Numbered from the stretch's first letter, positions 16,521-36,079 are shown. The stretch is 64,000 bases of DNA from Bryobacterales bacterium (GCA_003157745.1 PMKM01000242.1:67375-131374), one strand, 5' to 3'. Translations and numbers: made by a program. Notes: generated by a model not told the origin, from the sequence alone.

Positions 16521-19103
16521 ATGTCGCTCTATTCGCGCTCGTTGTTGCTGATTCTCATTGCAGCCTGCCGCCTCCTGGGCGGCGAAGCCCCCCTAGGGGC
16601 GGACGCCCTGCGTTCCGGAGAGCGGCTCGGCTATTTGCGGAACTGGAACGCCGCCCGGCCGTTCTACGCGGAAGCCGAGCGTCAGTTCGAAGCTGCTGGC
16701 GACCGCCGCAACGCTCTCTTCGCCGGTATCAGTCGCCTCCGCGGCGACCTCGATTCCCGGTCGTACCTCCAGACATCGGCGCACCTGGCCGAGCTTTTGG
16801 ATCAGCCGCTGCTGCAATCCGATCTCGCGCTCCGTCTGCGTTGCCTTGCTGTGAAGGGCGACGTAGACCTCGAACTCGACACAGATTTGGCTCGGCGGGA
16901 TTGGTCAGAGGCCAAGACCGTCGCGGAGAAGTTGAACGAGCCCGCCTGGGTGAACCGGGCGAACGCAGAGTTGGCCATCACCGGCTTCCTGGCTGGCGAC
17001 GTCAAGGGTGCCGCCATCGGCATGGCAGAAGCAATCCAGAAGGCGAAGGAACTGAACGACCAGGGATCGCTGGTCCGCTATGAGGCCCTCGTCGGGCACG
17101 GCCTAGTGCAGTGGAAGATGTACGACAAGGCGCTAAAGTTCTTCGACGATGCCCTTGCCATTGCGCAGAAGAATCCGGATATTCAGCGTCCGCTGCTGGT
17201 CTACTCGGGGAAGATCGACGCTCTGATTGCGTTGGGACGGGCGGCGGAGGCACAGAAACTCCTCGAAACGGCGTTGGACGGTGCCCGCGCGAACTCCGCA
17301 AAGGGTTATGAAGCTGAACTGCATCTGCGCGCGGCGCTGCTCAAATGGAAGCAGGGCGAGCGGCGACAAGCTATCTCCGAACTGAACGGCGCGATTCAGA
17401 TTGCGGACTCCATCGGCGCTATCCGGATTGCCGGGCAATGCTCCTTCCAACTGGCCCAGTATTTCGAGGCGTCCGGCAACCTGCCAGCCGCCAGCAGCGC
17501 AATCCGCCGTACCATCGCCACCGGCAGGAAAGCGGGCGACCGCCTCTTGCTACCGGCCGCCCTGGCGGAGGCTGGACGCATTGAGATCGCGCTCGGGAGA
17601 CTCCCCGCAGCCGACAGCTACTTCGAAGAAGCCGCCGCCATCGCGAACGGAATCATCGCCTCCGCCCCGACGATCACGTCAAAAGACCAGTTCATCGCCT
17701 CTCTCGATAACCTCTACCTCGATCACTTCCGCCTTCACGTCCGGCGGCACGATATCGCTGGGGCCTTCCGGGTTCTGGAAGAGGCGCGGGGGCGAGCCGT
17801 CGCCGACGCCCTTCGCAACGGCAGCGCGGACGCGCGTCCATTGACTGCCCGCCTGACGCCCAATGAAAAACGGGTCTCGCAGCTCCAACTGGCCCTCCTC
17901 CGAACCACGGCCAAGGCCGAGCGGCAGCGGCTGCTTTCGTCGCTCGAACGCTCCGAAGAGGAGTTGTTTCCGGCGTTGGTGTCACCTCGCGGCGGCGCAA
18001 CGCCAACCGAGCCGGTCGATATCGCCACGTTGCGGAACAACCTTCCACCCGGACACGTCCTGGTCGAATACCAGCTCGCCGAACCGTGGTCCCATTGCCT
18101 CGTCATTACGAGAGATCGTGCCTATGCAAAGCAGATTCCCGGCGCGGCGGAATTGACCCGAACCGTTGAAAAGCACCTGAAGGCCATCGAGCAGCGCGCC
18201 GATTTCGGAGAATCGGGTCGAGCGCTATTCGAGGTGCTCCTGCCAAGCGAGGCGCGCACGGCCGCCAACCTGATCGTCGTTCCCGATGGCGCGCTGTACG
18301 GGTTGCCATTCGAAACGCTTATCGACGCCGCTGGCAAGGCCTTCATCGACAAGCACACCGTCTGGTACGAGCCTTCCGCCACTGTCCAGTACCTGCTGGC
18401 ACGCCGCCATCCCCAGCCTCCTCCCACCCTGCCTTTGCTCGCGGTCGCTGCGGGTACAGACGGTTTGGGCACGCCGACCAGCCCGGTGCGGCGCAACATG
18501 TTCGACGTTCGCGGCACGTCCTTGCCAGCGCTTCCCGCAGCCAACGGCGAAGCCAGACTGGTCGGCGAGGCGATGGGGCCGCAGAGCGTGGTCATCACCG
18601 GCCGGGCGGCCACGGAGTCGGCTATCAAGAAGCAGCCGCTCGCGCGCTACCGCGTCCTTCACTTCGCAGTCCACGGGCTTGCCGCACCCGATCACCCGGA
18701 ACGGGCCGGGCTCGTCTTTTTCCCGGATGAAGCCGCCGCTGAGGACGGACTTTGGCAACTTCGCGACATCGCCCGCAGCAGGCTCTCCGCCGATCTCGTC
18801 ACGCTCTCTGCCTGCCGCGCCGGTAGCGGCAAGGTGCTCGGAACCGCCGGCACAGTGAGCCTTGTGACGGCCTTCCTGGCCGCCGGCGCGCGGTCGGTCG
18901 TCGCGAATCTGTGGGACTCCGACGACACCTTCACCAAAGCCCTAATGGGCAGTTTCTACCGCCACCTGGCCCAGAACATGCCCGCCGCCGAAGCCCTCCG
19001 GCAGGCGAAACTGGAAATGCGCGCGCGATACGGTGCAGAGGCGCCTCCTTACCTGTGGGCGGGTTTCACGCTCACCGGCATCAACGGACCGATACATCCA
19101 TGA
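16521..19103 (+). CDS. Exported TPR-repeat / CHAT-domain (caspase-fold) protease
   Basis: N-terminal signal-like MSLYSRSLLLILIAACRLLGG. About 450 aa of TPR-like helical repeats. C-terminal CHAT dyad context: VLHFAVHG (His718 codon 18672-18674) and TLSACRAG (Cys765 codon 18813-18815). Confidence 0.85.
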   Translation: MSLYSRSLLLILIAACRLLGGEAPLGADALRSGERLGYLRNWNAARPFYAEAERQFEAAGDRRNALFAGISRLRGDLDSRSYLQTSAHLAELLDQPLLQSDLALRLRCLAVKGDVDLELDTDLARRDWSEAKTVAEKLNEPAWVNRANAELAITGFLAGDVKGAAIGMAEAIQKAKELNDQGSLVRYEALVGHGLVQWKMYDKALKFFDDALAIAQKNPDIQRPLLVYSGKIDALIALGRAAEAQKLLETALDGARANSAKGYEAELHLRAALLKWKQGERRQAISELNGAIQIADSIGAIRIAGQCSFQLAQYFEASGNLPAASSAIRRTIATGRKAGDRLLLPAALAEAGRIEIALGRLPAADSYFEEAAAIANGIIASAPTITSKDQFIASLDNLYLDHFRLHVRRHDIAGAFRVLEEARGRAVADALRNGSADARPLTARLTPNEKRVSQLQLALLRTTAKAERQRLLSSLERSEEELFPALVSPRGGATPTEPVDIATLRNNLPPGHVLVEYQLAEPWSHCLVITRDRAYAKQIPGAAELTRTVEKHLKAIEQRADFGESGRALFEVLLPSEARTAANLIVVPDGALYGLPFETLIDAAGKAFIDKHTVWYEPSATVQYLLARRHPQPPPTLPLLAVAAGTDGLGTPTSPVRRNMFDVRGTSLPALPAANGEARLVGEAMGPQSVVITGRAATESAIKKQPLARYRVLHFAVHGLAAPDHPERAGLVFFPDEAAAEDGLWQLRDIARSRLSADLVTLSACRAGSGKVLGTAGTVSLVTAFLAAGARSVVANLWDSDDTFTKALMGSFYRHLAQNMPAAEALRQAKLEMRARYGAEAPPYLWAGFTLTGINGPIHP

Positions 19104-20353
19104 CCAGCGCACCTTTCAACCAAGAGATACGCGAGAAGGTCTTCTCCAAAGTTGTCGAGACCGTGGCGGAGAAGCTGTACGACCCCGCCTTGAACGGCGT
19201 CGATTGGCCCAAGATCACTGAGGAACGCAGCACGGGGATCGTGTCCAGCGAATCGACCGAACAGTTCGAGCGCCGGATGAACGAACTGATTCGCGAGTTG
19301 CGCGTAAGCCACGCTGGCTTCTTTCACGAGAGCCAGCCGCGCGCGACGGCCAAGGTCTCCATTGGTGCGACGTTCAACAACGAAAGCGACCGCTGGGTAT
19401 TCCAGGATGTCCATGCCGGTGGCCCGGCGCACGCCGCCGGGCTCGTCCCCGGCAACATCCTGCTGGCGGTTGCGGGCAAAGACGCCGCGCCGCCGGAGAT
19501 CCCGTCCTTCGCCATGGGCGAATCGGTGGCTCTCGATGTGGAACGTGCTAACGGCGCCCGCGAGCGGGTTCAGATCCTCATCCCGGTGGCCAAGAACAAG
19601 AAGCATCCAGTGGTCAGCCTCGACCCGCCAAGCTGGAAGCGGCTTGCCGACGGCATCGGATATCTGAAAATCGCGCTGTTTCCCGGCATTGTGGGAATCG
19701 ACGTGGCGCGCGACATCGACCGCGCCGTCTGCGAACTCGACTGCGAAAGGCTGGTCATCGACCTGCGCGGCAACGCCGGTGGCGGTATGGGGAGCCTTCG
19801 CGTGATGAGCTACCTCACCCCGGATCGGCTGCCTGTAGGCTACAGCGTCACCCGCAAGGATTTGGACCGTCCTGGCTTCCGTAAGGATCGCCTTCCAACC
19901 TTCGAGCGGATTCCGGATCTCAAACTGGGGCTGCTGCCTCTTATGATCCGGTTCGCGATCCGCGGGCGGTCGGTAGCCGTGTTTACCGAGGCGAAGGGCG
20001 CACAGCGCTTCCATGGTCGCGTGGCGATTCTGGTCAACGAACATACGGCCAGTTCGAGCGAGATGGTCACGGCGTTTGCATCGGAAAACGGGCTGGCCAC
20101 AGTGGTTGGCAGCCGCACCGCCGGCCGACTGCTCGGCAGCGATTCGTTCCGCGTGGGCTATGGATACCGTCTAGCGCTGCCGGTCGTGGAATACCGGACC
20201 TGGCGGGACGTCCGGCTGGAGAAAAACGGCGTGGCGCCCGACATCGAGGCACCATTTGACGCGAAAGCCCAACGCGAAGGAGTGGATACTCAGTTGGACG
20301 CGGCCATCGCGGCGGTGCAGGCTGGAGCCGCTCAGCGGATCGCGACGGGGTAA
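19100..20353 (+). CDS. S41-family (C-terminal-processing type) peptidase with a PDZ domain; no signal peptide
   Basis: The ATGA overlap with the CHAT gene stop indicates translational coupling. PDZ-like GGPAHAAGLVPGNILLAVAG. S41 motifs DLRGNAGGG and VNEHTASSSEMV (Ser codons 20051-20059). Confidence 0.8.
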   Translation: MTSAPFNQEIREKVFSKVVETVAEKLYDPALNGVDWPKITEERSTGIVSSESTEQFERRMNELIRELRVSHAGFFHESQPRATAKVSIGATFNNESDRWVFQDVHAGGPAHAAGLVPGNILLAVAGKDAAPPEIPSFAMGESVALDVERANGARERVQILIPVAKNKKHPVVSLDPPSWKRLADGIGYLKIALFPGIVGIDVARDIDRAVCELDCERLVIDLRGNAGGGMGSLRVMSYLTPDRLPVGYSVTRKDLDRPGFRKDRLPTFERIPDLKLGLLPLMIRFAIRGRSVAVFTEAKGAQRFHGRVAILVNEHTASSSEMVTAFASENGLATVVGSRTAGRLLGSDSFRVGYGYRLALPVVEYRTWRDVRLEKNGVAPDIEAPFDAKAQREGVDTQLDAAIAAVQAGAAQRIATG

Positions 20354-21018
20354 GTCCGCCAACTCCCGTCCGGGCCATGCACGCCTAGGACGTACGAACC
20401 TGCGGCGAGACGGGAAAAGTCGAAGGCGACCGAAAGGGTGGCCACGTGATCCGCGAACGCCGTGGAAGCCGTGTTCGTCATCACCGCGTGAAGCTCGCTG
20501 TCCATGACCCGAACTTCGTACTTGCCCTCGTCCGATCCCACAGGCAACGAAAGCACCAGCCGGACCGCCTTGCGATCCAGCGTGGCGGCCAATGGCTTGG
20601 ATTGCGGCGCAGCCTCGACCTCGCTGCGCGCCGGGCCGAACGGCCGAAGGTCCACGTTAATGACCGCCGCAACGGTGGTCGGAGGTGCCGGAAGCCGCGT
20701 GCCGCCGGTCCAGAACACGACGCCGCCGATTCCTGCCACCATGACAACCGACGCCAGCACCAACCGGTTCCGCCGAACCAGGCGTTTTCTGGCGGCCATC
20801 GCGACCTGCCGGAGTTCCAGAAACTCCTTGAAACAGGGGGAACAGTGGGAAACGTGCTCCCATGGCTCGTCCTGGATTGGTCTCAGCCGGGCCGCAACCT
20901 CCCGAACGACGTGCTCGCCGGGACACCCCTTACGTTCAGGATTTGGGTAGCTCTTCAGGACCGCCTGCTGTAGCAGGTCCTGGATTTCGTTCGAAAGATC
21001 CTCGGGCGTCTCGGGCAT
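20332..21018 (-). CDS. Zinc-binding anti-sigma-factor-like (ZAS, HxxxCxxC) single-pass membrane protein
   Basis: H55-VSH-C59-SP-C62 fits the ZAS motif. One TM helix (LVLASVVMVAGIGGVVFW) and a ~125-aa beta-rich extracytoplasmic tail. Its 3' end overlaps the convergent S41 gene by 22 nt. Confidence 0.6.
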   Translation of the reverse strand: MPETPEDLSNEIQDLLQQAVLKSYPNPERKGCPGEHVVREVAARLRPIQDEPWEHVSHCSPCFKEFLELRQVAMAARKRLVRRNRLVLASVVMVAGIGGVVFWTGGTRLPAPPTTVAAVINVDLRPFGPARSEVEAAPQSKPLAATLDRKAVRLVLSLPVGSDEGKYEVRVMDSELHAVMTNTASTAFADHVATLSVAFDFSRLAAGSYVLGVHGPDGSWRTYPVAIR

Positions 21019-21174
21019 CGGCTCACGCTATTATGGCATCCAGACAGCGTCGGCGGCGACGCCATATCGACCTTAGATCTCCTATGAGCACTCCGACCCG
21101 CCCGTGGGTTGGATCAGGACTCCGTCCCGGCGCAAGATGTCGTTTACTTTTCAGTCGGCCCAGGGTGTGCGAGA

Positions 21175-24100
21175 CTATGCCGACGCTTGCCGATGCCGCA
21201 ACAACTCGGCCTGGATTGCCTCTGCCTCAACCCGCAGTGCAGCAGCCTTGTCGGGTTGGCCCATCGCTTCGAAGATGATCGCTTGGTTGTGAAGGCTGTT
21301 TCGCAGCACGCTGGGCAGGGGAAGGTCGCGACAGATGGCTTCCTGCCGCTGGGCCAATCCGAGTGCTTCCTGCAATTGGCCTCGAGCATAAAGGATACCG
21401 GCTTGGTCGCCATAAGTCCGCGCCATCCCCTCGCGGTTGCCCAACTCTTCACAGATTCTCTCCTTGCGGAGCAGCAACGTCATGGCGTCATCGAGTTGCC
21501 CCGCAGTCTGGAGGATGGTGGCCTTGTTACCGCAAATCTTCTGCAACCCGTCTCTATCTCCCAAGTCCTCACAGATCTTTTCCTCAGCGTTGTAGAGAGC
21601 CATCGCCTCCCCAAGGTGCCCGCTGTCTACAAGGATCCCGGCCATTCCGCCGTAGCATCTTCCCAAAGCTGCTGGGTCACCCAGCTTTTCGCTGATCTCG
21701 CCTTGTCGCTGAAGGAGCCTCATCGCGTCCGCGAACTGGCCCAGTTCTCGTAAAATTCCAGCCTGGTTGCCGTAACTGTTGGCCAAGCCGTGAGGGTTGC
21801 CGAGTTCCTCATAGATTTTCTCCTGGCGCTGGAACAGCGTCATGGCTGCTTTCGATTGGCCCCAGTCTCTAAGGATCAGGCCCTGATTGCCGTAGCTGGC
21901 TGCCAGATTCGCTTGGTCGCCCAACTCTTCGCAGATCTTCTCTTGCCGTTGCAGTAGTTCCAGTGCCTCGGTGTATTGACCCCATTCGCGAAGGATCGTA
22001 GCCTGATTGCAGTAGCTCCCTTGGAGCCTCGCAGGGTCGCCGAGTTCCTCGCAGATTTTCTCCTGCCGCTTCAGTAGGCTCATAGCCTCCTTAAGCTGTC
22101 CCCACCGGATGAGAATGAGTGCTTGGTTGCCGTAGCTCGACATCAAGCTTCGACGGTCTCCTCGGTCGGTGCAGATTTTCTCTTCTCGACGGTGCAGTGC
22201 CATGGCTTCTTTCAGTTGGCCCCACATTTGGAGGATCAGGGCTTGGTTGCCGTAGCTCGACGCCAGGCCGTCCTGGTCGCCCAATTCCCCGCAGATCTCT
22301 TCCTGGCGATGCAGCAGTTCCATAGCCTCCTTGAGATGCTCCCCGCCCATCAGGAGCAGTATTCCAGCCCGAGTGCCGTAGCTACTCGCCAAGCCGGCGC
22401 GGTCATTCAACTCTTCGCAGATCTTCTCCCCACGCTGGAGCAGCGCCACGGCTTCTGTCAGTCGGTGGCGGTCTATGAGAATCAAAGCTTGATTAAGGTA
22501 GCTCAGTGCCAAACGCTGCCGGTCGCCCAGCTCCTCGCAGGTCTCTTCCTGGCGGTGAAGAAGGTCCATGGCCTCACTCAATTGGCCCCATGACTTTAGA
22601 ATCAAAGCCTGATTGCCATAGCTTGATGCCAGGCTAGCGCGGTCCCCTAACTCTTCGCAGATCTTTGCCCCGCGCTGGAGGAGGACCATTGCCTCCTTGA
22701 GTTGGCCCCGCGCCTTGAGGATCAGCGCCTGGTTACCGTAGCTAGACGCCAGCCCGGAACGGTCACCCAACTCCTCGTAGATCTTCTCCTGTTGGTGCAG
22801 CAACGCCATGGCTTCGCCTAACCGGTCCCAACCCAGGAGGATGCTTGCTTGGTTGCCATAGCTTGCTGCGAGTCCGGAGCGATCGCCAATCTCCTCTCGG
22901 ATCTTGTCCCCAAGCTGATGCAGTTCCATAGCATCCTTAAGACGCCCCCAGGTCTCTAAAATGAGGGCTTGGCTGCCGTAGCTCGATGCCATGCCGGCGC
23001 GGTCACCCAGCTCCTCACAGATTTGCTGTTCGCGCTGAAGGAGGTTCATTGCCTCTCGCAGCTGGCCCCAGGCCTTAAGGATTAGTGCTTGGCTGCCGTA
23101 GCTCTGCGCCAGATAAGCCCTGTCGCCTAAATCCTCCAAGATCTCTTCCTCGCGTTTGAGAAATGTTAGTGCTTCACTGAGACGTCCCCATTCTTTGAGG
23201 ATGATGGCTTGATTGCGGTAGCTAGATGCCGTGCCTACCGAATCGCCCAATTCTTTGTAGATCGCCTCTTCTCGCTGGTGCAGGGTCATCGCCTCTTGTA
23301 ATTGCCCCTGTTGCAAGAGAATGATGCCTTGAAAACCGTAGCTCCTCGCGAGAAGCTCGCGGTTGCCTGTTTCCTCGCAAATCTTCTGTTGGCGCTGGAC
23401 CAGCGTCATTGCCTCATTGAGCCGGCCCCAAACTTGAAGGACCATGGCCTGGTTGCCGTAGCTCGCGGCCACCTGTTCGCGGTGGCCTGATTTCTCGAAT
23501 ACGGCTTCGGCCACCTGCATCACCTGAATGGCATCTGCGAGGCGCCCACGACGGTGAAGCAAGCAAAAGCCATCAGATGCCAGGTGGTTGAACATTGTGA
23601 GTCGTTCGGGAGGGGGTGGTGTTCCGCATTGGGTCCACTCGATGGCCGACCGCCAGTCGGCCAAATCGTCCTCACACTCGCGCCAACGCTCCTCCCACGC
23701 CTGAAAACTCCGTTCGATCGCTTTGGCGTGGCAGTCTTGCATAGTCGAGTCCTGGCCTGCTTCCGCACGGACTAAAGAGTGTAGACGGTAACGGCCTTTC
23801 TCGCGGTCAAGCACTTCGACAAGGGAGCGCGAATATAGGTCCTGCAAGTGATCGAGCGCGGTCCTTTCATCCATTCCGGCAACTTCCGCAGCTAGACTAA
23901 GCCGAAAGCCAGACGCCGCGCAAATCGCCATCGCGTCCAGGAGTCTGCGAGAATCCGGCCCCACGCTTGTGATTGCGGTACTCAGCAGTCTGCCGACGTC
24001 TAGATCGCCATGAGCAAGTTTGTTCAGGTTTGTTTCTTTGAGCAGGCGGTCCAGGCTGAAGCGTAAGTCATTCTTTAGCAGGCCCGCGGCTACAGCTACA

Positions 24101-25323
24101 GCGATTGGGAGGTGCCCAAGCGACTCCGAGAGCCTTAGATAATCGGATTCGCGCCGCGTTACTTCCGTCGGACCGAGATGTGCCCGGAGCAAATCGAGGC
24201 ACTCTCCGGATGTGAAGACACCAAACTCCGGCGGTCGAAATCGCGTTAAGAACGGCAGACCCGATAGGCGAGTGGTGATCAGAACCGAGCAACGCCCGCC
24301 AGGTATGAGTGCTGCAAAATCGTTTGATTCGACGCTGTCCAGGACGAGAAGGTAATGTCTAGCCTTGCAACGGAGACCAAGCTCGCGTAGCTGAACGTCT
24401 ATTGGTATGCTCGTTTCGATCCCGAGTTGGGCCGACAGCCCGGATACCGCAGACGACAGCTTCAGTCCTGCGCAGTTGAGCCAGTAAACACCTTCGAAGT
24501 CAGGCTTAAAGCGGTGCGCGAATGCGACCACAAGGCTCGTCTTGCCTAAGCCAGGCATTCCAATTACCGGCACAACCGCGCCGGGCTCGGCCAGTCGTCC
24601 ACGGAGAGCTTCGAGAGCGTTTGTCCGTCCGACGAACCAGTCCGGTTCGCTCGGCGCGAAGAAGGCCGGGTCGATAAGAGCTGGTTGTTGTGGCATAAGC
24701 TCGCGAAGCTCCTTCAATACAATGCCGAGCTTGATGTAAAGGGCGGCCACGGTTTGCACGTTAAAAATGTCACGCAGCTCAGGCACGGACTTCAATTGAT
24801 CGGCGAAATAGCGGCTGATCTGCTTGAACCAGTCTTCGGAGAGCGCGCTCGTCACCGATTGTGGAGGTGGGCCGAGCTTCGCTTCGACCCACTCGCTCAC
24901 GAGCATCGTAGCGAGCGATTCGCGAAGACGGGCTACAGCCGCGGTTGCAGCCGACTCTTGGACGTCCGGTTCCACCACGAGAGACGGCTCCCAGTCGCCG
25001 AGTGGCAGCGGCGGTACGTAGAGCTTGTCCTTCAGTTTCTCTCTTTCTACGCCTAGCCATTTCAGCGCACTCTTCAGCCACTCGACCGTGTCGGCCGCAG
25101 TTAAGCTGGAGCCAGCATCGTGCCGCGGTCGGTCGAGCAGATCCTTGGTGGCGGCAAGATACGCCTCCCGCAAAGCCCGCTGAAGATGATGATTGGCCGG
25201 CTGGCCCTCGCCGCGTATCCAGTCCCGAATCTTAGGTGCGGCCTTGCACGCAACGGCGTACGTGGCATTTCCTATTGGCCCGCTGACGGCGGCGGAACCT
25301 ATGAAGAACGTGATGGGATCCAT
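21175..25323 (-). CDS. STAND NTPase: unassigned N-terminal ~220-aa domain, NB-ARC-like P-loop module, and about 19 tandem 40-aa TPR repeats
   Basis: Walker A GMPGLGKT (24541-24561). Walker B-like YLLVLDSVE. The C-terminal repeat consensus is SYGNQALILKaWGQLkEAMxLLqRQEkICEELGDRxGLA. The start is either the ATG at 25323 (MDPITFF) or the TTG at 25341. Confidence 0.85.
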   Translation of the reverse strand: MDPITFFIGSAAVSGPIGNATYAVACKAAPKIRDWIRGEGQPANHHLQRALREAYLAATKDLLDRPRHDAGSSLTAADTVEWLKSALKWLGVEREKLKDKLYVPPLPLGDWEPSLVVEPDVQESAATAAVARLRESLATMLVSEWVEAKLGPPPQSVTSALSEDWFKQISRYFADQLKSVPELRDIFNVQTVAALYIKLGIVLKELRELMPQQPALIDPAFFAPSEPDWFVGRTNALEALRGRLAEPGAVVPVIGMPGLGKTSLVVAFAHRFKPDFEGVYWLNCAGLKLSSAVSGLSAQLGIETSIPIDVQLRELGLRCKARHYLLVLDSVESNDFAALIPGGRCSVLITTRLSGLPFLTRFRPPEFGVFTSGECLDLLRAHLGPTEVTRRESDYLRLSESLGHLPIAVAVAAGLLKNDLRFSLDRLLKETNLNKLAHGDLDVGRLLSTAITSVGPDSRRLLDAMAICAASGFRLSLAAEVAGMDERTALDHLQDLYSRSLVEVLDREKGRYRLHSLVRAEAGQDSTMQDCHAKAIERSFQAWEERWRECEDDLADWRSAIEWTQCGTPPPPERLTMFNHLASDGFCLLHRRGRLADAIQVMQVAEAVFEKSGHREQVAASYGNQAMVLQVWGRLNEAMTLVQRQQKICEETGNRELLARSYGFQGIILLQQGQLQEAMTLHQREEAIYKELGDSVGTASSYRNQAIILKEWGRLSEALTFLKREEEILEDLGDRAYLAQSYGSQALILKAWGQLREAMNLLQREQQICEELGDRAGMASSYGSQALILETWGRLKDAMELHQLGDKIREEIGDRSGLAASYGNQASILLGWDRLGEAMALLHQQEKIYEELGDRSGLASSYGNQALILKARGQLKEAMVLLQRGAKICEELGDRASLASSYGNQALILKSWGQLSEAMDLLHRQEETCEELGDRQRLALSYLNQALILIDRHRLTEAVALLQRGEKICEELNDRAGLASSYGTRAGILLLMGGEHLKEAMELLHRQEEICGELGDQDGLASSYGNQALILQMWGQLKEAMALHRREEKICTDRGDRRSLMSSYGNQALILIRWGQLKEAMSLLKRQEKICEELGDPARLQGSYCNQATILREWGQYTEALELLQRQEKICEELGDQANLAASYGNQGLILRDWGQSKAAMTLFQRQEKIYEELGNPHGLANSYGNQAGILRELGQFADAMRLLQRQGEISEKLGDPAALGRCYGGMAGILVDSGHLGEAMALYNAEEKICEDLGDRDGLQKICGNKATILQTAGQLDDAMTLLLRKERICEELGNREGMARTYGDQAGILYARGQLQEALGLAQRQEAICRDLPLPSVLRNSLHNQAIIFEAMGQPDKAAALRVEAEAIQAELLRHRQASA
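21228..23505 (-). repeat. About 19 tandem 120-bp coding repeats (the TPR array of the STAND gene)
   Basis: Exact 120-bp periodicity is visible. For example, gcttggttgccgtagctcga occurs at 22121 and again at 22241, with related strings at 22861, 22981 and 23101. Confidence 0.85.
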
Positions 25324-25641
25324 GGCGATGCGATCGATCAAGTATATCTTGACTCACGCTGCCAAACAGTACTGGAATTCGACGACAGAAATTCGACCTG
25401 GTGCCGCCGGGTATGTAGCCGCAACGCGCCCTTCCGCAATGGAGCAACTACCACATGGCCCCTTTCCGCTAACATCCCAGAGAAGGCCAGTCAGTTCGAT
25501 TCCTCTAATCGAGTATTGGGAACACGGCTCCCCTCGCTCTCCGGCAGACGGTTCGTTTCGAACCTTCTCAATCACCAGCAGCTTACGCGGGTGCTAGTCC
25601 TGCGTCAGCACCACTGCGAGGAAAACTGGACTGAATAGTCG

Positions 25642-26238
25642 CTACCGCAGCTTCAGATCTTCCAACGCCTTGTTGAACCACCGCCAGAAGCGCCTCGTGA
25701 CCGCTTTTGGGTTCTGGTCAACGCGCTCCCCGATCTCTATCCATGGAATGCCATAGAGCCACATGTCAAGCGAGTCGTTGACATCTGGCACGTCGTGCTC
25801 GTCGAAGTACTCGCGCAACAGTCGGCGATACTCCTCGGCCTCCGCCTCCGTCTGAACGTCAGAGGCTGAACGCAGTTTCCGCACCAGACTGGCGAGCAGG
25901 GCTTGTTCGCGGCGCCGGGCGTTTCGCCCGCCGTCACGGAGATCTAGTGCCGCCCATTGGGCATAGGACCAAATCCGGGAACTGGGATTGCGCCCAAGTT
26001 CGTCTCCGTGGCTGCCCCAGACAGCGTGGACGGACTTCTCCGCCACCTCTGAGACACACCAGACGTCCTTGAGAACCCTCCTGGAGAGAGCGCGCAGCGG
26101 ATCGGCAATTGGGACTACAGCTTCAAGCCAACCGCGATTGATAGGCAGACCGTTACGGTCCGTGTCATTGATGCAAATCGGGATGACAAGGGCATCCCGG
26201 AGTGGGTCGTAGTCGAAAGGGATGGTGACGATAGCCAT
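25642..26238 (-). CDS. Hypothetical protein with a C-terminal sigma-70 region-4-like HTH
   Basis: ATG at 26238. The C-terminal GIPWIEIGERVDQNPKAVTRRFWRWFNKALEDL resembles region 4.2 of ECF sigma factors. The N-terminal 130 aa are unassigned and no region 2 was recognised. Confidence 0.45.
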   Translation of the reverse strand: MAIVTIPFDYDPLRDALVIPICINDTDRNGLPINRGWLEAVVPIADPLRALSRRVLKDVWCVSEVAEKSVHAVWGSHGDELGRNPSSRIWSYAQWAALDLRDGGRNARRREQALLASLVRKLRSASDVQTEAEAEEYRRLLREYFDEHDVPDVNDSLDMWLYGIPWIEIGERVDQNPKAVTRRFWRWFNKALEDLKLR

Positions 26239-26367: not shown

Positions 26368-27396
26368 ATGCCCACTTTAGTAATGGTCGGGGACGAACAG
26401 AGACAGCGCTTTGAAGCGAAGCTGCGCCGGGAATTGGGCGAGACCGTACTTAACTTACTTAATGACCGACGGACCGAGGATATTCTCCTCAATCCTGATT
26501 CCGTCCTGTGGTCCAAGAGGATGGGCGAAGGCTTCGCCCCTGTCGGCAAGATCCCGCCGGCACAAGCGGTCAGTGCGATGAACACCATCGCCGCCTGGAA
26601 AGGCACGGTCATGAATCATGACCGGCCGATCCTGGAGACCGAATTGCCGCTCGATGGCAGCCGATTCGAAGGCATCATTTCGCCTGTCGTGCAGCAGCCG
26701 ATTTTCGCGATTCGTCTGCGTCCGCGTCGAATATTCACGCTCGACGAGTACGAGCTGAGTAGCATTCTCACCCACAAGGCCGACCCGCTAAACCGCCTCC
26801 GAGGTAAGGACCGCTTCCGTGAGTCGCTCGAAGGACTCACTCACGCTGAGATCATCCGCGCCGCTGTGCGGGCAAAGAAGAACATCCTGGTGGTGGGCTC
26901 GACCGGCTCCGGCAAGACCACGCTGGTGAACGCCATCCTCGACGCACAGGCGCAGATCGCGCCCAATGACCGCGTGATCTCCATTGAAGACACCACAGAG
27001 CTGCAATGCGCGGTGAAGAACTGCGTCGATCTCCGTGCGGTGGGTGCAGTCACCATGATGGACTGCCTGCGCGCCTGCATGCGTCTGAAGCCCACGCGTA
27101 TCGTGGTCGGCGAAGTCCGCGGCGCGGAAGCACACACCATGCTCAAGGCGTGGAACACTGGGCACCCTGGCGGCGCTGCAACAGTCCACGCCAACGACGC
27201 GCTCAGCGGGCTGATCCGCCTCGAAAGCCTTGTGGCCGAAGCCACCGCCGCGCCGCAACAGAGTCTCATCGCCGAAGCCATCGACCTGGTCATCTTCGTC
27301 GATGAAGAACCGGACCTGGCCGCCGGCCGCAAGGTCCGCGAGTTAGCCCTCGTCACCGGATACCGCGACGGGCGGTACGAAGTCGAGTATGTCTGA
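26368..27396 (+). CDS. trbB: P-type conjugative transfer ATPase TrbB (VirB11 family)
   Basis: Walker A GSTGSGKTT. RIVVGEVRGAEAHTMLKAWNTGHPGG is the VirB11 His-box region. First gene of the trb operon. The ATG at 26368 is preferred over the TTG at 26284. Confidence 0.9.
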   Translation: MPTLVMVGDEQRQRFEAKLRRELGETVLNLLNDRRTEDILLNPDSVLWSKRMGEGFAPVGKIPPAQAVSAMNTIAAWKGTVMNHDRPILETELPLDGSRFEGIISPVVQQPIFAIRLRPRRIFTLDEYELSSILTHKADPLNRLRGKDRFRESLEGLTHAEIIRAAVRAKKNILVVGSTGSGKTTLVNAILDAQAQIAPNDRVISIEDTTELQCAVKNCVDLRAVGAVTMMDCLRACMRLKPTRIVVGEVRGAEAHTMLKAWNTGHPGGAATVHANDALSGLIRLESLVAEATAAPQQSLIAEAIDLVIFVDEEPDLAAGRKVRELALVTGYRDGRYEVEYV

Positions 27397-27418
27397 ACCA
27401 ACCTTCAGGAGGTTATTG

Positions 27419-27757
27419 ATGCACTTCACTCAAACGATCCGCCGCGCAGGACGCGGCATCAACCATCACGCGCTCATGGCCCTGGTGCTCGGGTTCTGCG
27501 CGCAACTCCACGCTTCGTCGTCGGGCACGCTTCCGTGGGAGAAGCCGATGACGACCATAGCCACCTCGCTTACCGGCCCGGTGGCCTATGCGATCGGGCT
27601 GATCGGCATCGCGATTGCCGGCGGCACGATGCTCTGGGGTGGTGAACTCACCGAGTTCGGCCGGCGCGCCTGCATGATCGGCCTGGTCGTGTCGGTGTTG
27701 GTATTCGCCGCGCCAATGTTATCCAGCGCGTTCGGCGTCTCGGCGGCGGTGGTGTAA
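27419..27757 (+). CDS. trbC: TrbC/VirB2 pilin precursor
   Basis: The ATG at 27419 lies 6 nt after AGGAGG. It has a long leader and two hydrophobic helices (GPVAYAIGLIGIAIAGG, CMIGLVVSVLVFAAPML). Positioned after trbB. Confidence 0.85.
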   Translation: MHFTQTIRRAGRGINHHALMALVLGFCAQLHASSSGTLPWEKPMTTIATSLTGPVAYAIGLIGIAIAGGTMLWGGELTEFGRRACMIGLVVSVLVFAAPMLSSAFGVSAAVV

Positions 27758-27760
27758 GGT

Positions 27761-28081
27761 ATGGACTCCGCGAACAGGCCAAGAGAAGTTGCCATCCACC
27801 AGTCCGTCAATCGGCCGAACCTGGTCCTCGGCGGCGACCGCGAGCTCGTGCTCGTCACGATTATGGTCAGCGTCAGCCTGGGATTCAGTCTGGCCACCTG
27901 GTGGGGCATTGGCTTGAGCGTGGTGTTCTGGGTGGCAGCGATGGCGGCCTTGCAGCGCATGGGCAAGGCCGACCCGCTCCTCCGGCACGCCTACCTGCGC
28001 CACGTGGGCTACCGCAACTTCTATCCGGCGAAGAGCGGGCTGCACTCGCAGACGCTTCCCACGCCGCTCAATTGGAGGTGA
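27761..28081 (+). CDS. trbD: TrbD (VirB3 family)
   Basis: About 106 aa with a central TM hairpin; RPNLVLGGDRELV is typical of VirB3/TrbD. Positioned between trbC and trbE. Confidence 0.85.
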   Translation: MDSANRPREVAIHQSVNRPNLVLGGDRELVLVTIMVSVSLGFSLATWWGIGLSVVFWVAAMAALQRMGKADPLLRHAYLRHVGYRNFYPAKSGLHSQTLPTPLNWR

Positions 28082-28083
28082 CG

Positions 28084-30516
28084 ATGCAGATTACGGAACA
28101 TCGCAGTCGTGCCCGCGGCTTGGCCGATCTGCTGCTATACGACGCGCTGGTCGAAGACGGCATCCTGCTGCAACAGGACGGATCCTTGCTGGCCGCCTGG
28201 TCGTATCGCGGTCCCGACACGATGTCGTCCTCGGCCGCTGAGATGGCGGCACTCAGTGCGCGCCTGAACAGCGTGCTGCGTCTCGGCAGCGGTTGGATGG
28301 TGCAGTGTGATGCCATCCGGTCGCAAGCGCCCGGCTATCCCGATCCCGGCGCCTTTCCGGACCTGGTCACGCGAGTCATCGACGACGAACGTCGCCAGCA
28401 GTTCACCGCCGAAGGCTCCCACTACGAGAGCGAGTATTTCCTCAGCCTCACCTACCTGCCGCCGGTAGAGGCAGAAGAGAAGCTCAAGGGCTGGATGTTC
28501 GAGGGCAACGCGCACCATGCGGAGGCGGCCCAACTCATCCTTGACCGCTTCCGCGCCCGGCTGGAAGCCTTCGAGAACATCTTCGGTCAGATCTTCCGGG
28601 TCGAGCGGCTCCGGCTCGGCGGCGGCGACCAAGATCCGCTTCTTCGATACATTCACCGCTGCCTCACCGGCAACGACCATCCGATCCTTCTCCCGCAGAT
28701 CCCCGCCCACCTCAACGACCTGCTTGCCTCCGAAGATTTCTGCGGCGGCATCGAGCCGCGAATCGGCCGCAAGCATATCCACATGATCGCGATTGACGGC
28801 CTGCCCCGCAGCAGTTCGCCCGGCCTGCTCCGCGAGCTCGATTCCATTCCCATTGAATATCGCTGGAACACGCGCGCCCTGCTCATCGATCCCGAAGAGG
28901 CACGGGCTCTGCTCGACAACACGCGGCGGAAGTGGCGCTCGAAGATCCGCGGCTGGAAGGACCAGATCTTCCACACGCAATCCGGCCCGGTGAACATGTT
29001 CGCCCAGGAGATGGCGGCCGATGCGGAGACTGCCATGGGCGTCGCCAGCGCGGGCGATGTCCAGTTCGCAGAGTATTCTTCGAACCTCGTCCTTCTCGAT
29101 GAGGACCGCGCTCGCCTCCAGGAGAGCACGCGCCTGGTGATGAAGACCATCCAGAACCTGGGCTTTGCGTGCCGTCTGGAGACCATCAACGCGATTGAGG
29201 CCTGGCGCGGCAGTCTCCCCGGCGATGGCTACCGCAACGTGCGCCGCACGCTTCTGCACACGCTGAACCTGGCGGACCTTCTTCCAACCAGTTCCGTCTG
29301 GGCTGGCCAGCGTGAGAATCCATCGAGCCTGATGCCGAAGCACAGCGCGCCGCTACTGTACGCCGCCACGTCGGGCGCCACGCCGTTCCGCTTCAACCTC
29401 CACGTTTCGGACCTCGGCCACACGCTGGTCTGCGGCCCATCTGGTGCGGGAAAGTCGACGCTGCTCGGTTTGCTCGCTGCGCAGTGGTTCCGCTACGACC
29501 GCGCCCAGGTCTTCGCGTTCGACAAGGGCTACTCGCTTTACGTCCTCAACAAAGCGTCTGGCGGTGAGTTCTACGACCTGGCCGGACCGAAGACACACCT
29601 AGCGTTCTGCCCGCTCCGCGAACTGGACGACGATTCGGACGTCACCTGGGCGGTCGGCTGGCTAGAGGCGCTCTGCGTTCTCAACAACCTTAAGGTGACA
29701 CCGAAGCACCGCAACGCACTCACCGAGGCCGTCCTGCAACTCCGCCTCTCGCCCTCGCGCACCCTGACCGAACTCAGCGCGAACGTGCAGGACATGGAGG
29801 TCCGCGACGCCCTCCAGCACTACACGCTCGCCGGGCCGCTCGGCTCGCTGCTCGATGCTGACGAAGATCTCCTCGGTGACGGGCGATTCCTGACATTCGA
29901 AACGGAGCACCTGCTTCAACTCGACGACAAGAGCGTGCTGCCGGTGCTGCTCTACCTTTTCCGCCGTATCGAAAAGCGCCTAGATGGCTCACCCACGCTG
30001 GTGCTGCTCGACGAAGCCTGGGTCTACCTTCGTCACGGCCTGTTCCGCGAACGGATGCGCGATTGGCTCAAGACGCTGCGCCGCATGAACGGTGTCGTCG
30101 TCATGGCCACCCAGCAACTCAGCGACGTCTGCAATTCCGAAATCGCCGACGTGATCCTAGAGAACTGCCCGACGAAGATCCTGCTGCCGAACGCCGAAGC
30201 TCAGACGCCGAACTCGAAGGCATTCTATGACCGTGTCGGCCTCAATGACACCGAGTTGAGCCTGCTGCAAACGGCCGTGCCGAAGCAGCACTACTACGTT
30301 CTCTCCCCCTTGGGGCGGCGGTTGATCTCGCTCGGACTTGGCAAGGTCACGCTGTCCTTTGTCGGCGTCAACGGCACTGAAGAGCGGCGCGGCTTCGACG
30401 AAGTCGCTGCCACCTCGCCCGACTGCTGGCGTTCCGAATGGTTGCGATTCCGTGGCCTGGAGAAGTGGGCCGCGTATCTCGAAGAAATGGAGGCTTCCTC
30501 ATGCGTAAACGTCTGA
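28084..30516 (+). CDS. trbE: TrbE (VirB4 ATPase)
   Basis: Walker A GPSGAGKST and Walker B LVLLDEAW. About 810 aa from the ATG at 28084, which lies 2 nt after the trbD stop. Confidence 0.9.
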   Translation: MQITEHRSRARGLADLLLYDALVEDGILLQQDGSLLAAWSYRGPDTMSSSAAEMAALSARLNSVLRLGSGWMVQCDAIRSQAPGYPDPGAFPDLVTRVIDDERRQQFTAEGSHYESEYFLSLTYLPPVEAEEKLKGWMFEGNAHHAEAAQLILDRFRARLEAFENIFGQIFRVERLRLGGGDQDPLLRYIHRCLTGNDHPILLPQIPAHLNDLLASEDFCGGIEPRIGRKHIHMIAIDGLPRSSSPGLLRELDSIPIEYRWNTRALLIDPEEARALLDNTRRKWRSKIRGWKDQIFHTQSGPVNMFAQEMAADAETAMGVASAGDVQFAEYSSNLVLLDEDRARLQESTRLVMKTIQNLGFACRLETINAIEAWRGSLPGDGYRNVRRTLLHTLNLADLLPTSSVWAGQRENPSSLMPKHSAPLLYAATSGATPFRFNLHVSDLGHTLVCGPSGAGKSTLLGLLAAQWFRYDRAQVFAFDKGYSLYVLNKASGGEFYDLAGPKTHLAFCPLRELDDDSDVTWAVGWLEALCVLNNLKVTPKHRNALTEAVLQLRLSPSRTLTELSANVQDMEVRDALQHYTLAGPLGSLLDADEDLLGDGRFLTFETEHLLQLDDKSVLPVLLYLFRRIEKRLDGSPTLVLLDEAWVYLRHGLFRERMRDWLKTLRRMNGVVVMATQQLSDVCNSEIADVILENCPTKILLPNAEAQTPNSKAFYDRVGLNDTELSLLQTAVPKQHYYVLSPLGRRLISLGLGKVTLSFVGVNGTEERRGFDEVAATSPDCWRSEWLRFRGLEKWAAYLEEMEASSCVNV

Positions 30517-31217: not shown

Positions 31218-31552
31218 GGGCCATGATGCGACTTCTTCTTGCGGTGACCTTGATCGCGCTGGCGGGTTGCTCCGTTCGCGAGCGGCCCAGCGCCATCGTC
31301 CAGCGTGCGGAAGCGGCTGGCTCGGGCAGGCTGGACTCGGCGTCGTCTCTCGCGATGCAGTCCTGGCTCGAACGCCATCGGGATGTCGCGGCAGAGTTGG
31401 ATCGTATGTGCGCGCCGGTTCGCGAGAAGGCCCAGGCGGAGTGGCAAGACACGACCGAAGGCCGCGTTTGTGCCGCTTCGCGCAATGTCGTGATGACCAC
31501 GTTCAAGCGCCTCGAAGGCGATCACAAGACCTACGGCGCGGGGTGGAAATAG
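31214..31552 (+). CDS. Small lipoprotein in the trbK position (possible entry exclusion protein)
   Basis: ATGA overlap with trbJ. Lipobox LIALAGC. 112 aa, located between trbJ and trbL. Confidence 0.6.
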   Translation: MRAMMRLLLAVTLIALAGCSVRERPSAIVQRAEAAGSGRLDSASSLAMQSWLERHRDVAAELDRMCAPVREKAQAEWQDTTEGRVCAASRNVVMTTFKRLEGDHKTYGAGWK

Positions 31553-31553
31553 C

Positions 31554-32783: not shown

Positions 32784-32794
32784 GAGAAACGGCG

Positions 32795-33460: not shown

Positions 33461-33477
33461 GAACGGGAGACACAGCT

Positions 33478-36026: not shown

Positions 36027-36079
36027 CATCGGAACTATGCCAGTCATCGCCGCTGGAGGCGCAGGAAAGCGAGAAACAA

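What the first reader, a model, noticed from the sequence alone, without database searches (positions are those of the whole stretch)
20332..26238. NLR-like module carried as ICE cargo: sigma4-HTH protein, NB-ARC/TPR STAND NTPase with an unassigned N-terminal domain, and a ZAS-type membrane protein
**Seen in the sequence**
- Three same-strand genes lie in order: 26238-25642, 25323-21175 and 21018-20332.
- The central protein has an NB-ARC-type P-loop (GMPGLGKT at 24541-24561) and about 19 near-identical 40-aa TPR units.
- Its first ~220 aa (about 24669-25323) match nothing I recognise. They begin with a Gly/Ala-rich hydrophobic helix, PITFFIGSAAVSGPIGNATYAVAC.
- Downstream lies a protein with an exact HxxxCxxC zinc anti-sigma motif, one TM helix and a periplasmic tail, but no ECF sigma gene sits next to it.
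- Upstream lies a protein whose only recognisable part is a sigma region-4-like HTH.

**Established knowledge**
- Bacterial STAND/NLR proteins (Avs, bNACHT, NB-ARC-TPR families) are phage-sensing or conflict systems built as an N-terminal effector, an NTPase and a repeat sensor.
- N-terminal hydrophobic helices are typical of HeLo/Bell-type membrane-disrupting effectors.

**Inference**
- This may be an NLR with a new effector domain, possibly membrane-targeting, wired to an anti-sigma-like membrane partner.
- It rides on a conjugative element directly upstream of the trb operon.
Basis: partly seen in the sequence, partly recalled or inferred. Interest (0 to 1): 0.75.

Follow-up and report, generated by a model that had tools for sequence, protein, structure and literature searches.

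The report
Single-gene NLR-like cargo on an ICE
One large NLR-like gene, whose first residues match a cell-death motif known from anti-phage NLRs, has been dropped as cargo between two backbone genes of a conjugative element, so the proposed three-gene module does not exist.

Summary
All three genes exist as described. The central 1382-aa protein is a real NB-ARC/TPR STAND NTPase with a complete motif set and 18 regular 40-aa repeats.

The "module" is not one. In 30 of 39 related Acidobacteriota elements, homologues of the 198-aa and 228-aa genes are directly adjacent (48-161 bp apart). They are element backbone, next to trbB on one side and the S41 protease and CHAT-TPR genes on the other.

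The STAND gene (cargo segment about 21066-25641) sits in a variable slot between them. Sister elements carry a PD-T4-7 homologue, Ivy/Band_7 genes, an NHL propeller or an IS630 transposon there. Close STAND relatives elsewhere lack these neighbours.

The N-terminal ~215 aa form a real, unannotated all-helical domain family:
- It has 58 clusters, always at the protein N-terminus.
- It is fused to NB-ARC, NACHT, AAA_16 and nSTAND NTPases.
- The next-closest NTPase relatives carry TIR in its place.

The protein begins MDPIT. This matches the published MDPIT/MEPIS motif of bNACHT11, Avs2 and Bell/HeLo-type domains.

Best reading: a single-gene abortive-infection NLR with a membrane-perturbing N-terminal domain. 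It is a new variant of a known kind.

The parts
21175..25323 (-). STAND/NLR-like gene (1382 aa): N-terminal helical domain, NB-ARC NTPase and TPR array. The ATG at 25323 is taken as the start, not the TTG at 25341.
   Evidence: The ORF is listed and the Pfam hits. Homologues P0001 and P0071 begin MDPIS at the same position. Gene calls in metagenomes give 1382 aa.
25279..25323 (-). MDPIT/MEPIS-type N-terminal motif and Gly/Ala-rich leader helix (residues 1-15, MDPITFFIGSAAVSG).
   Evidence: The family consensus is M-[DE]-P-[IL]-[ST], with 28 of 55 strict and 46 of 55 loose matches. The motif is described in bioRxiv 10.1101/2024.11.07.622273 and 10.1101/2024.12.17.629029.
24679..25323 (-). N-terminal all-helical domain (residues 1-~215). 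It belongs to an unannotated family that is always N-terminal.
   Evidence: HMMER found 58 cluster representatives. The AF2 model has pLDDT 81.7 and pTM 0.74. There is no Pfam match and no PDB or BFVD fold match.
23704..24654 (-). NB-ARC-type NTPase module with winged-helix region (residues ~224-540). It carries Walker A at 255, Walker B at 325, TTR at 347, GxP at 403 and MHD-like RLHSLVR at 513.
   Evidence: The closest solved sequences are the plant NRC3 and NRC1 NB-ARC domains.
24538..24561 (-). P-loop GMPGLGKT.
   Evidence: Located.
21298..23487 (-). TPR sensor array of 18 regular 40-aa units (residues 613-1342). The framework is invariant, and repeat positions 4, 8, 18, 19, 24 and 28 are hypervariable.
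   Evidence: Pfam TPR_12 scores E = 1.5e-52.
21066..25641 (.). Cargo segment that is absent from sister elements. It holds the STAND gene and its two intergenic spacers.
   Evidence: blastn similarity to L016, L018 and L022 stops at window 21040-21065 on one side. On the other side it stops within or at the end of the 198-aa gene. GC content is about 0.58, against 0.61-0.64 in the adjacent backbone bins.
25642..26238 (-). 198-aa backbone gene, divergent from trbB, with a weak C-terminal HTH. It is not a STAND partner.
   Evidence: It has 34 homologues.
20332..21018 (-). 228-aa backbone gene with a C..HxxxCxxC motif, one TM segment and an Ig-like C-terminal domain. In most relatives it is the adjacent partner of the 198-aa gene. 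It is not a STAND partner.
16521..20353 (+). Backbone CHAT-TPR protease (16521-19103) and S41 peptidase (19100-20353), convergent with the 228-aa gene.
   Evidence: The Pfam hits are. The pair is conserved with the 228-aa gene in related elements.
26368..35797 (+). trbB to trbI conjugation operon, followed by a tyrosine integrase at 36020-37183.

Best explanation
The 1382-aa protein is a self-contained, single-gene NLR-like conflict system. It was acquired as cargo in a variable slot of an Acidobacteriota integrative conjugative element.

**Shown**
- It has an intact NB-ARC NTPase and an 18-unit TPR array with position-specific hypervariability.
- It has an independent ~215-aa all-helical N-terminal domain that begins with the MDPIT/MEPIS motif.
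- The flanking 198-aa and 228-aa genes are element backbone and do not travel with the STAND.

**Inferred mechanism**
1. The TPR array binds a protein from an invading phage or other mobile element.
2. Binding releases autoinhibition, and the NB-ARC module oligomerises when it binds NTP.
3. Oligomerisation clusters the N-terminal domains.
4. The MDPIT leader helix is freed from its helical sheath and perturbs the inner membrane.
5. The cell dies or arrests (abortive infection), as reported for bNACHT11 (plasmolysis) and Bab/Bell.
For: **Architecture**
- Pfam NB-ARC and TPR_12 both match.
- Walker A, Walker B, TTR, GxP and MHD-like motifs are all present.
- The closest solved NTPases by sequence are the plant CC-NLRs NRC3 and NRC1.

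**N-terminal domain is a separate module**
- 58 representatives match at E<=1e-3, always at residues 1-~230.
- Fusion partners among 43 members are AAA_16 (17), NPHP3_N (12), NB-ARC (9), NACHT (5), nSTAND1 and nSTAND5.
- It also occurs in short non-STAND proteins.
- In L060 it is a separate gene directly downstream of a P-loop/TPR protein and an MmeI-like restriction-modification gene.

**Effector position**
- NTPase relatives at 53-60% identity share the domain.
- Those at 30-41% identity carry TIR_2 or TIR instead.

**Motif**
- The window protein begins MDPIT.
- The family consensus is M-[DE]-P-[IL]-[ST] followed by a Gly/Ala-rich hydrophobic stretch.
- In bNACHT11, D2A and P3A abolish defence, and activation causes plasmolysis (10.1101/2024.12.17.629029).
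- The MEPIS region is shared by Bab, Bell, Hell, Avs2 and bNACHT02/11/23 (10.1101/2024.11.07.622273).

**Fold**
- AF2 predicts an all-alpha bundle. The core is confident and the first ~40 residues are low-confidence.

**Cargo status**
- The flanking genes are adjacent in 30 of 39 related loci.
- The slot holds other cargo in sister elements, including a PD-T4-7 homologue at E = 6e-39.
- DNA homology breakpoints bracket only the STAND gene.
- STAND relatives in other contexts lack these neighbours.
Against: - No experiment bears on this protein.
- It matches no NTPase model of a PADLOC defence family.
- The N-terminal domain has no profile match to HeLo, Helo_like_N, SesA or Rx_N, and no significant fold match in the PDB (best E = 0.3) or BFVD.
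- Its own leader is only moderately hydrophobic (best 19-residue Kyte-Doolittle mean 1.07).
- The motif is five residues long, and I compared it with published consensus strings, not with an alignment.
- The trigger is unknown.
- Cargo in the same slot is heterogeneous and not all defence-like.
- One population variant carries a premature stop, so the gene may be dispensable.
Confidence: 0.6

Rival explanations
1. The HTH protein, the STAND and the anti-sigma-like membrane protein form a three-gene module in which the STAND signals through the membrane partner.
For: The three genes share a strand and have short spacers. The 228-aa protein has an invariant HxxxCxxC motif and a TM segment.
Against: - The two flanking genes are directly adjacent in 30 of 39 related elements that have no STAND.
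- They are retained with unrelated cargo in L016-L018, L022, L044 and L046.
- Close STAND relatives (L057, L058) lack them.
- Homology breakpoints isolate the STAND as a single inserted gene.
Confidence: 0.03
2. The N-terminal domain is an adaptor (EAD- or Death-like) that recruits a separately encoded effector by homotypic interaction. It would not be the executioner itself.
For: - It has no enzymatic signature and carries strongly conserved surface-like motifs (NHDLQRAVR.AYL.AT and DWF.L.C.FFA.ELK).
- A few family members are fused to VMAP-C or TRADD-N, which occur in adaptor-rich systems.
- Stand-alone versions exist.
Against: - The 64-kb window holds only one copy of the domain.
- L060 also holds only one copy, and its NTPase partner lacks the domain, so no homotypic pair is seen.
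- The extreme N-terminal MDPIT motif is itself required for killing in bNACHT11.
Confidence: 0.15
3. The STAND is a MalT/AfsR-like signal-transducing regulator, for example of element transfer or a host pathway. It would not be a cell-death or defence protein.
For: NCBIfam gives sub-threshold similarity to AfsR and FxSxx_TPR across the NTPase and TPR regions. More distant NTPase relatives include SARP/BTAD and XRE-HTH fusions.
Against: - No DNA-binding domain is detected, and the N-terminal domain is an unmatched helical bundle with no HTH hit.
- The gene is absent from sister elements with 91-95% identical TrbB, so backbone function does not need it.
- The nearest relatives carry TIR.
Confidence: 0.05
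4. It is an NLR-like cell-death or self/non-self recognition system that acts against competing conjugative elements or in kin discrimination. Its mechanism is as in the best explanation, but its trigger is not a phage.
For: It is carried on a conjugative element. Regular repeats with hypervariable positions resemble fungal and bacterial NLRs linked to allorecognition.
Against: No direct evidence favours it. The one recognisable anti-phage gene in the equivalent slot (PD-T4-7) and the restriction-modification neighbour in L060 lean towards phage defence.
Confidence: 0.12

Closest known systems
bNACHT11 and other clade-14 bNACHT proteins (bacterial NLR-related anti-phage proteins)
   Same: - Both have the tripartite layout of N-terminal effector, STAND NTPase and C-terminal sensor.
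- The extreme N-terminus reads MDPIT, identical to the published bNACHT11 consensus.
- The proposed logic is the same: oligomerisation clusters the N-termini and the cell dies.
   Different: - The NTPase here is NB-ARC/AP-ATPase-type, not NACHT.
- The sensor is a TPR array, not SNaCT.
- The motif heads a structured ~215-aa helical domain rather than a ~45-aa extension.
- No PADLOC defence-family NTPase model matches.
Bell/Babybell, HeLo, HeLL, MLKL 4HB and plant CC domains (membrane-targeting helical executioner domains)
   Same: - It is an all-alpha bundle.
- It has an acidic residue at position 2-3 followed by a hydrophobic, Gly-rich helix 1.
- It occurs both fused to NB-ARC/TPR or NACHT NLRs and as a separate protein next to an NTPase.
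   Different: - It is about twice the length of Bell (~100 aa) and has more helices.
- It has no profile or fold match to these families.
- No amyloid signalling motif is evident.
- It comes from Acidobacteriota rather than the filamentous lineages stressed for Bell.
TIR-NB-ARC-TPR bacterial STANDs
   Same: They are the next-closest NTPase and TPR relatives, at 30-41% identity with the same 40-aa repeat type.
   Different: They carry a TIR (NADase-type) effector where this protein has the MDPIT helical domain.
NACHT N-terminal helical domains (Pfam NNH2, NNH3)
   Same: These are uncharacterised helical N-terminal domains of bacterial NLRs. One family member gives a weak NNH2 hit (E = 5e-4, 20 bits) over the NHDL..AYLQAT helix.
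   Different: - The hit is below Pfam's threshold.
- It covers 49 residues and is not collinear with the profile.
- 32 of 33 members, including the window protein, give no hit.
Cargo or defence hotspots of integrative conjugative elements
   Same: A fixed intergenic position between conserved backbone genes holds different cargo in related elements. That cargo includes a PD-T4-7 homologue.
   Different: - This hotspot splits a conserved two-gene pair (198-aa and 228-aa genes).
- The cargo is heterogeneous (Ivy/Band_7, NHL propeller, IS630-BlaR1).
- The insertion mechanism was not identified.

Membership tests
STAND NTPase, NB-ARC/AP-ATPase type | The Pfam NB-ARC profile scores above its gathering threshold. 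| tested here: met
   It scores 32.3 bits against a cut-off of 23.5 at residues 235-418. Close relatives carry PF00931.
STAND NTPase, NB-ARC/AP-ATPase type | Walker A, Walker B, RNBS-B (TTR), GxP and MHD-like motifs occur in the expected order. | tested here: met
   GMPGLGKT at 255, LLVLDSV at 325, VLITTR at 347, GHLPIA at 403 and RLHSLVR at 513.
NLR-like tripartite architecture | A C-terminal superstructure-forming repeat sensor is present. | tested here: met
   There are 18 regular 40-aa TPR units, and TPR_12 scores E = 1.5e-52.
NLR-like tripartite architecture | The N-terminal domain is independent and swappable among scaffolds. | tested here: met
   The domain is fused to NB-ARC, NACHT/NPHP3_N, AAA_16, nSTAND1 and nSTAND5, and also occurs alone. 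TIR occupies the slot in the next-closest NTPase relatives.
MDPIT/MEPIS-motif executioner domains (Bell, Bab, HeLo, HeLL; bNACHT11, Avs2) | An M-[DE]-P-[IL]-[ST] motif lies at the extreme N-terminus. | tested here: met
   The window protein begins MDPIT. In the family, 28 of 55 match strictly and 46 of 55 loosely, and 49 of 55 have D/E at positions 2-4.
MDPIT/MEPIS-motif executioner domains (Bell, Bab, HeLo, HeLL; bNACHT11, Avs2) | Helix 1 is hydrophobic or pore-lining and is cupped by a helical bundle. | tested here: inconclusive
   The AF2 model is all-alpha, but residues 1-40 have pLDDT of 46-63. The best 19-residue hydropathy is 1.07 in the window protein, against a family mean of 1.47, and 18 of 55 members reach 1.6.
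MDPIT/MEPIS-motif executioner domains (Bell, Bab, HeLo, HeLL; bNACHT11, Avs2) | Profile or fold similarity to HeLo, Helo_like_N, SesA, Rx_N or the MLKL N-terminal domain. | tested here: not met
   33 members give no such Pfam hit at E<=1. Foldseek against the PDB gives a best E of 0.3 with TM about 0.2. The cited preprint notes that similarity in this superfamily can be limited to the N-terminal motif.
MDPIT/MEPIS-motif executioner domains (Bell, Bab, HeLo, HeLL; bNACHT11, Avs2) | Activation causes membrane perturbation or cell death. | not testable with these tools
   This needs expression and microscopy.
Known anti-phage STAND families (Avs, bNACHT and others in PADLOC) | A family HMM matches the NTPase or the whole protein. 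| tested here: not met
   Only a generic TPR model and spurious short hits were returned.
Zinc-binding anti-sigma factor (ZAS), for the 228-aa protein | An HxxxCxxC motif with an upstream Cys or His ligand. | tested here: met
   C32 is nearly invariant, and H55, C59 and C62 are invariant in 14 homologues.
Zinc-binding anti-sigma factor (ZAS), for the 228-aa protein | A match to the Pfam zf-HC2 or anti-sigma profile. | tested here: not met
   No such hit appears in any of 14 homologues at E<=1. Only weak Ig-like hits appear in the C-terminal part.
Zinc-binding anti-sigma factor (ZAS), for the 228-aa protein | A cognate ECF sigma factor is encoded next to it. | tested here: inconclusive
   No sigma gene is adjacent in the window. 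In 30 of 39 relatives the adjacent upstream gene is the 198-aa homologue. That family gives only weak Myb hits (4 of 27) and Sigma70_ECF hits (1 of 27, E = 0.001).
EAD or Death-like adaptor domains | A second copy of the same domain sits on a neighbouring effector protein. | tested here: not met
   An HMM of the domain finds only the STAND gene in the window. It finds a single copy in each of L059 and L060.
MalT/AfsR-type STAND transcription regulators | A DNA-binding domain (LuxR-HTH, SARP/BTAD or XRE) is present. | tested here: not met
   None was detected. The similarity to AfsR is confined to the NTPase and TPR regions, at 126 bits against a cut-off of 1430.

The most novel reading that the evidence does not exclude
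The ~215-aa N-terminal domain defines a previously unannotated family of MDPIT/MEPIS-type executioner domains. Its conserved helical sheath carries the motifs NHDLQRAVR.AYL.AT and DWF.L.C.FFA.ELK. The family is spread across at least five STAND NTPase clades and also occurs in split two-gene systems. It would bridge the minimal 45-aa motif of bNACHT11 and the compact Bell/HeLo bundles. It would also offer a structured model for how the motif is held inactive and then released.
Probability: 0.4. Interest if true: 0.65.

Novelty: new variant of a known kind. Interest (0 to 1): 0.45.

Why it matters
- **The motif's mechanism is open.** How MDPIT/MEPIS N-termini kill cells is unresolved; the bNACHT11 authors say it is unclear how membranes are perturbed. 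A family in which the same motif heads a confidently predicted, conserved helical domain, on NB-ARC, NACHT and other scaffolds, gives new constructs and conserved residues to test.
- **The element has a cargo slot.** The work identifies a cargo slot in a family of Acidobacteriota conjugative elements. It also identifies a conserved backbone pair (an HTH protein and a Zn-motif membrane protein) beside S41 and CHAT proteases, which may regulate the element.
- **A caution on method.** Same-strand neighbours of a STAND gene on a mobile element should not be read as partners without checking synteny.

Tried and rejected
- **Single-sequence AF2** of residues 1-382 gave pLDDT 34 and was unusable. It was replaced by an alignment-based model.
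- **The word-index homologue search** with the N-terminal domain found only two near-identical fragments. The exhaustive HMMER search was needed.
- **TRF** found no DNA tandem repeat in the TPR region.
- **Fold and profile searches** gave nothing significant: Foldseek against the PDB and BFVD, and profile hmmsearch against PDB sequences.
- **The NNH2 hit** turned out to be one marginal, non-collinear hit in one member. I treated it as inconclusive.
- **PDB hits of the 198-aa profile** to designed armadillo repeats are summed weak repeats. I judged them spurious.
- **A 228-aa and a 198-aa gene near STAND relative L058** looked like synteny, but they are unrelated proteins of coincidental size.
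- **The promoter and terminator scan** around the gene was no better than shuffles.
- **A phmmer search** with the 63-residue N-terminus against the PDB gave only chance hits.
- **tblastn** of the domain against the plasmid and phage collections found no match.
- **The search for related loci** with the domain alignment failed because no stretch was conserved enough.
- **A HEPN-like Rx4-6H reading** of the conserved NHDLQR motif was considered and dropped. The order and spacing do not fit, and there was no fold support.


Full report
**1. Observation check**

The three same-strand ORFs exist at the stated coordinates: 198 aa at 25642-26238, 1382 aa at 21175-25323 and 228 aa at 20332-21018, all on the minus strand.

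The central protein:
- Scores above Pfam's threshold for NB-ARC (32.3 bits against 23.5, residues 235-418) and very strongly for TPR_12.
- Carries GMPGLGKT at residue 255, which is 24538-24561 in the window.
- Also carries Walker B LLVLDSV (325), TTR (347), GHLPIA (403) and an MHD-like RLHSLVR (513).
- Is closest, among solved sequences, to the NB-ARC domains of the plant CC-NLRs NRC3 and NRC1.

The TPR array:
- Has 18 regular 40-aa units plus degenerate caps.
- Averages 51% pairwise identity (range 20-78%), so "near-identical" is overstated. No DNA-level tandem repeat is detected.
- Concentrates its variability at repeat positions 4, 8, 18, 19, 24 and 28, on an invariant framework.

Residues 1-~220 match nothing in Pfam, NCBIfam or PADLOC.

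**2. The flanking genes are backbone, not partners**

The exact element recurs nearly unchanged in many metagenomes, with 0-6 SNPs across the STAND gene. Those copies say nothing about conserved linkage, so I used divergent relatives instead.

- The 198-aa protein has 34 homologues down to 36% identity.
- A scan of one genome per species found 35 loci. All are Acidobacteriota (Bryobacterales or Terriglobia).
- tblastn mapping compared 39 loci that hold both genes. The set includes a few overlapping fetches of the same contig.
  - In 30 loci the 198-aa and 228-aa homologues are directly adjacent on one strand, 48-161 bp apart. They usually lie divergent from trbB, and the S41 peptidase, CHAT-TPR and RepB-primase genes are often nearby.
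  - In seven loci, as in the window, 4-6.3 kb of unrelated cargo separates them.

| Locus | Cargo between the two backbone genes |
|---|---|
| L015-L017 | Ivy-domain, Band_7 and zinc-ribbon genes |
| L018 | PD-T4-7 homologue (E = 6e-39), trypsin-like protease, HNH |
| L022 | NHL propeller |
| L044 | Two IS630-type transposases around a BlaR1-like peptidase |
| L046 | 4.1-kb insert; the one ORF tested has no Pfam match |
| Window | The STAND gene alone |

- DNA similarity to sister elements stops at window 21040-21065 on one side. On the other side it stops within or at the end of the 198-aa gene. The breakpoints therefore bracket just the STAND gene.
- The cargo region also has lower GC (0.58 against about 0.61-0.64 in the adjacent backbone bins).
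- Close STAND relatives with the same N-terminal domain (53-59% NTPase identity; L057, L058) have no 198-aa, 228-aa or Trb neighbours.

**3. What the flanks are**

- **228-aa family.** C32 is nearly invariant, and H55-x3-C59-x2-C62 is invariant. It has one hydrophobic segment and a C-terminal part with weak Ig-like hits. No member hits Pfam zf-HC2.
- **198-aa family.** It has a strongly conserved N-terminal region. The C-terminal ~50 residues give weak Myb, ECF-sigma or HTH hits in a minority of members.
- **Inference.** Their adjacency in most relatives suggests that they work together. I suggest an HTH regulator paired with a membrane Zn-motif antagonist, possibly controlled by the neighbouring S41 and CHAT proteases. 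This is inference only.

**4. The N-terminal domain**

An exhaustive HMMER search of 1.84 billion cluster representatives found 58 proteins at E<=1e-3 and 14 at E<=1e-10. The match is always at residues 1-~230.

Among 43 members scanned, the downstream partners were:

| Partner | Members |
|---|---|
| AAA_16 | 17 |
| NPHP3_N | 12 |
| NB-ARC | 9 |
| NACHT | 5 |
| nSTAND1 | 2 |
| VMAP-C | 2 |
| nSTAND5 | 1 |
| TRADD-N | 1 |

- Others are short proteins in which the domain is followed by coiled coils, further helical regions or a TM segment.
- In L060, a stand-alone 400-aa version lies directly downstream of a TM/P-loop/TPR protein and an MmeI-like restriction-modification gene.
- NTPase relatives at 53-60% identity share the domain. 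The next tier (30-41%) carries TIR_2 or TIR there.

So the domain is an independent module in the effector position.

With a 33-sequence alignment, AF2 gives a confident all-alpha model (pLDDT 81.7, pTM 0.74). The core helices are well defined, but residues 1-40 are low-confidence. Foldseek finds nothing significant in the PDB or BFVD. Profile and Pfam searches give only one marginal NNH2 hit in one member.

**5. The motif link**

- The protein begins MDPITFFIGSAAVSG.
- Across the family, 49 of 55 members have D or E at positions 2-4, followed by a hydrophobic, Gly/Ala-rich stretch.
- The registered consensus is M-[DE]-P-[IL]-[ST]. It matches 28 of 55 strictly and 46 of 55 loosely, and several members read MEPIS or MDPIS exactly.

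Two preprints describe this motif:
- **10.1101/2024.11.07.622273** defines a ~15-residue "MEPIS" N-terminal region. It is shared by Bab, Bell and Hell domains and by the anti-phage NLRs Avs2 and bNACHT02/11/23. The paper shows membrane alterations on Bab/Agp activation, and loss of T4 defence when the region is mutated in Avs2.
- **10.1101/2024.12.17.629029** reports that the N-terminal effector of bNACHT11 has the consensus "MDPIT". D2A and P3A abolish defence. Activator-induced heptamerisation triggers plasmolysis-type cell death.

An earlier preprint notes the acidic residue at position 2-3 plus a hydrophobic helix as common to Bell, HeLo, MLKL and plant CC domains (10.1101/2020.01.06.895854).

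The caveats are that the motif is short, that I compared consensus strings rather than alignments, and that the rest of the domain has no detectable similarity to those families.

**6. Mechanism proposed**

The steps below are inferred, apart from the architecture:
1. The TPR array binds a foreign protein.
2. The NB-ARC module oligomerises when it binds NTP.
3. The N-terminal domains cluster.
4. The MDPIT helix is released from its sheath and disturbs the inner membrane.
5. The result is abortive infection.

Rivals:

| Rival | Confidence | Main objection |
|---|---|---|
| Adaptor domain recruiting a separate effector | 0.15 | No second copy of the domain nearby |
| NLR directed at non-phage triggers | 0.12 | No direct evidence; slot and neighbour context lean towards phage defence |
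| MalT/AfsR-like regulator | 0.05 | No DNA-binding domain; the gene is dispensable to the backbone |

**7. Novelty and score**

- The architecture (Bell/HeLo-like domain, NB-ARC, TPR, all in one protein) and the motif are both known.
- The ~215-aa helical family that carries the motif is unannotated and is spread over several STAND clades.
- The cargo slot in this element family has not been described, as far as my literature searches and reading showed.
- I rate it a new variant of a known kind, with interest 0.45.

Noticed in passing
window 20332-21018 and 25642-26238; loci L020-L052: The 198-aa HTH-like and 228-aa Zn-motif membrane genes are a conserved adjacent pair in 30 of 39 related elements. 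They usually lie divergent from trbB, often with S41-peptidase and CHAT-TPR protease genes nearby. This may be a regulator/antagonist pair under proteolytic control that governs the element.
   Followed up: partly
L018:10727-15777 (sister element; TrbB 95% identical): The same slot holds a PD-T4-7 homologue (E = 6e-39), a trypsin-like protease with weak defence-model hits, an HNH_5 protein and two unknowns. The position behaves as a cargo or defence hotspot.
   Followed up: partly
window 25642-26238 compared with L016-L018: Between sister elements the 198-aa protein is only 55-59% identical, while the divergently transcribed TrbB is 91-95% identical. This points to rapid divergence or exchange of this regulator-like gene.
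   Followed up: no
L007:5696-9844 and L011 (JGI 3300021182): One population variant of the STAND gene has a nonsense change (AAG to TAG at codon 1249) that removes the last three or so TPR units. Otherwise it differs from another metagenome copy (L006) by only six further substitutions, and from the window copy by two.
   Followed up: yes
L001:1491-2450 (protein P0001, 319 aa): This is a 77%-identical remnant of the STAND (N-terminal domain plus half the NTPase). It is truncated where an unrelated opposite-strand 433/448-aa gene overlaps it, and it recurs in several metagenomes. It is probably a decayed copy.
   Followed up: partly
L060:363-8072: A stand-alone N-terminal-domain protein (400 aa) sits directly downstream of a 1191-aa protein with a TM segment, a P-loop (GLSGVGKT) and TPRs, and of an MmeI-like restriction-modification gene. 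This looks like a split, two-gene version of the system in a defence-like context.
   Followed up: partly
window 16521-20353: A CHAT-TPR protease (860 aa) and an S41 C-terminal-processing-type peptidase overlap by 4 bp. They are conserved backbone of this element family. Their role in a conjugative element is unexplained.
   Followed up: no
window 37733-39817 and 42000-48000: A VapE-like/DUF3854 primase-helicase gene follows directly after the element's integrase. A lower-GC block (0.53-0.54) lies at 42-48 kb. Together they may mark a second mobile element or island.
   Followed up: no
window 2494-8721: CobN-type chelatase and TonB-dependent receptor genes lie directly beside the relaxase at 8793-10217. 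Whether they are chromosomal flank or cargo was not determined.
   Followed up: no
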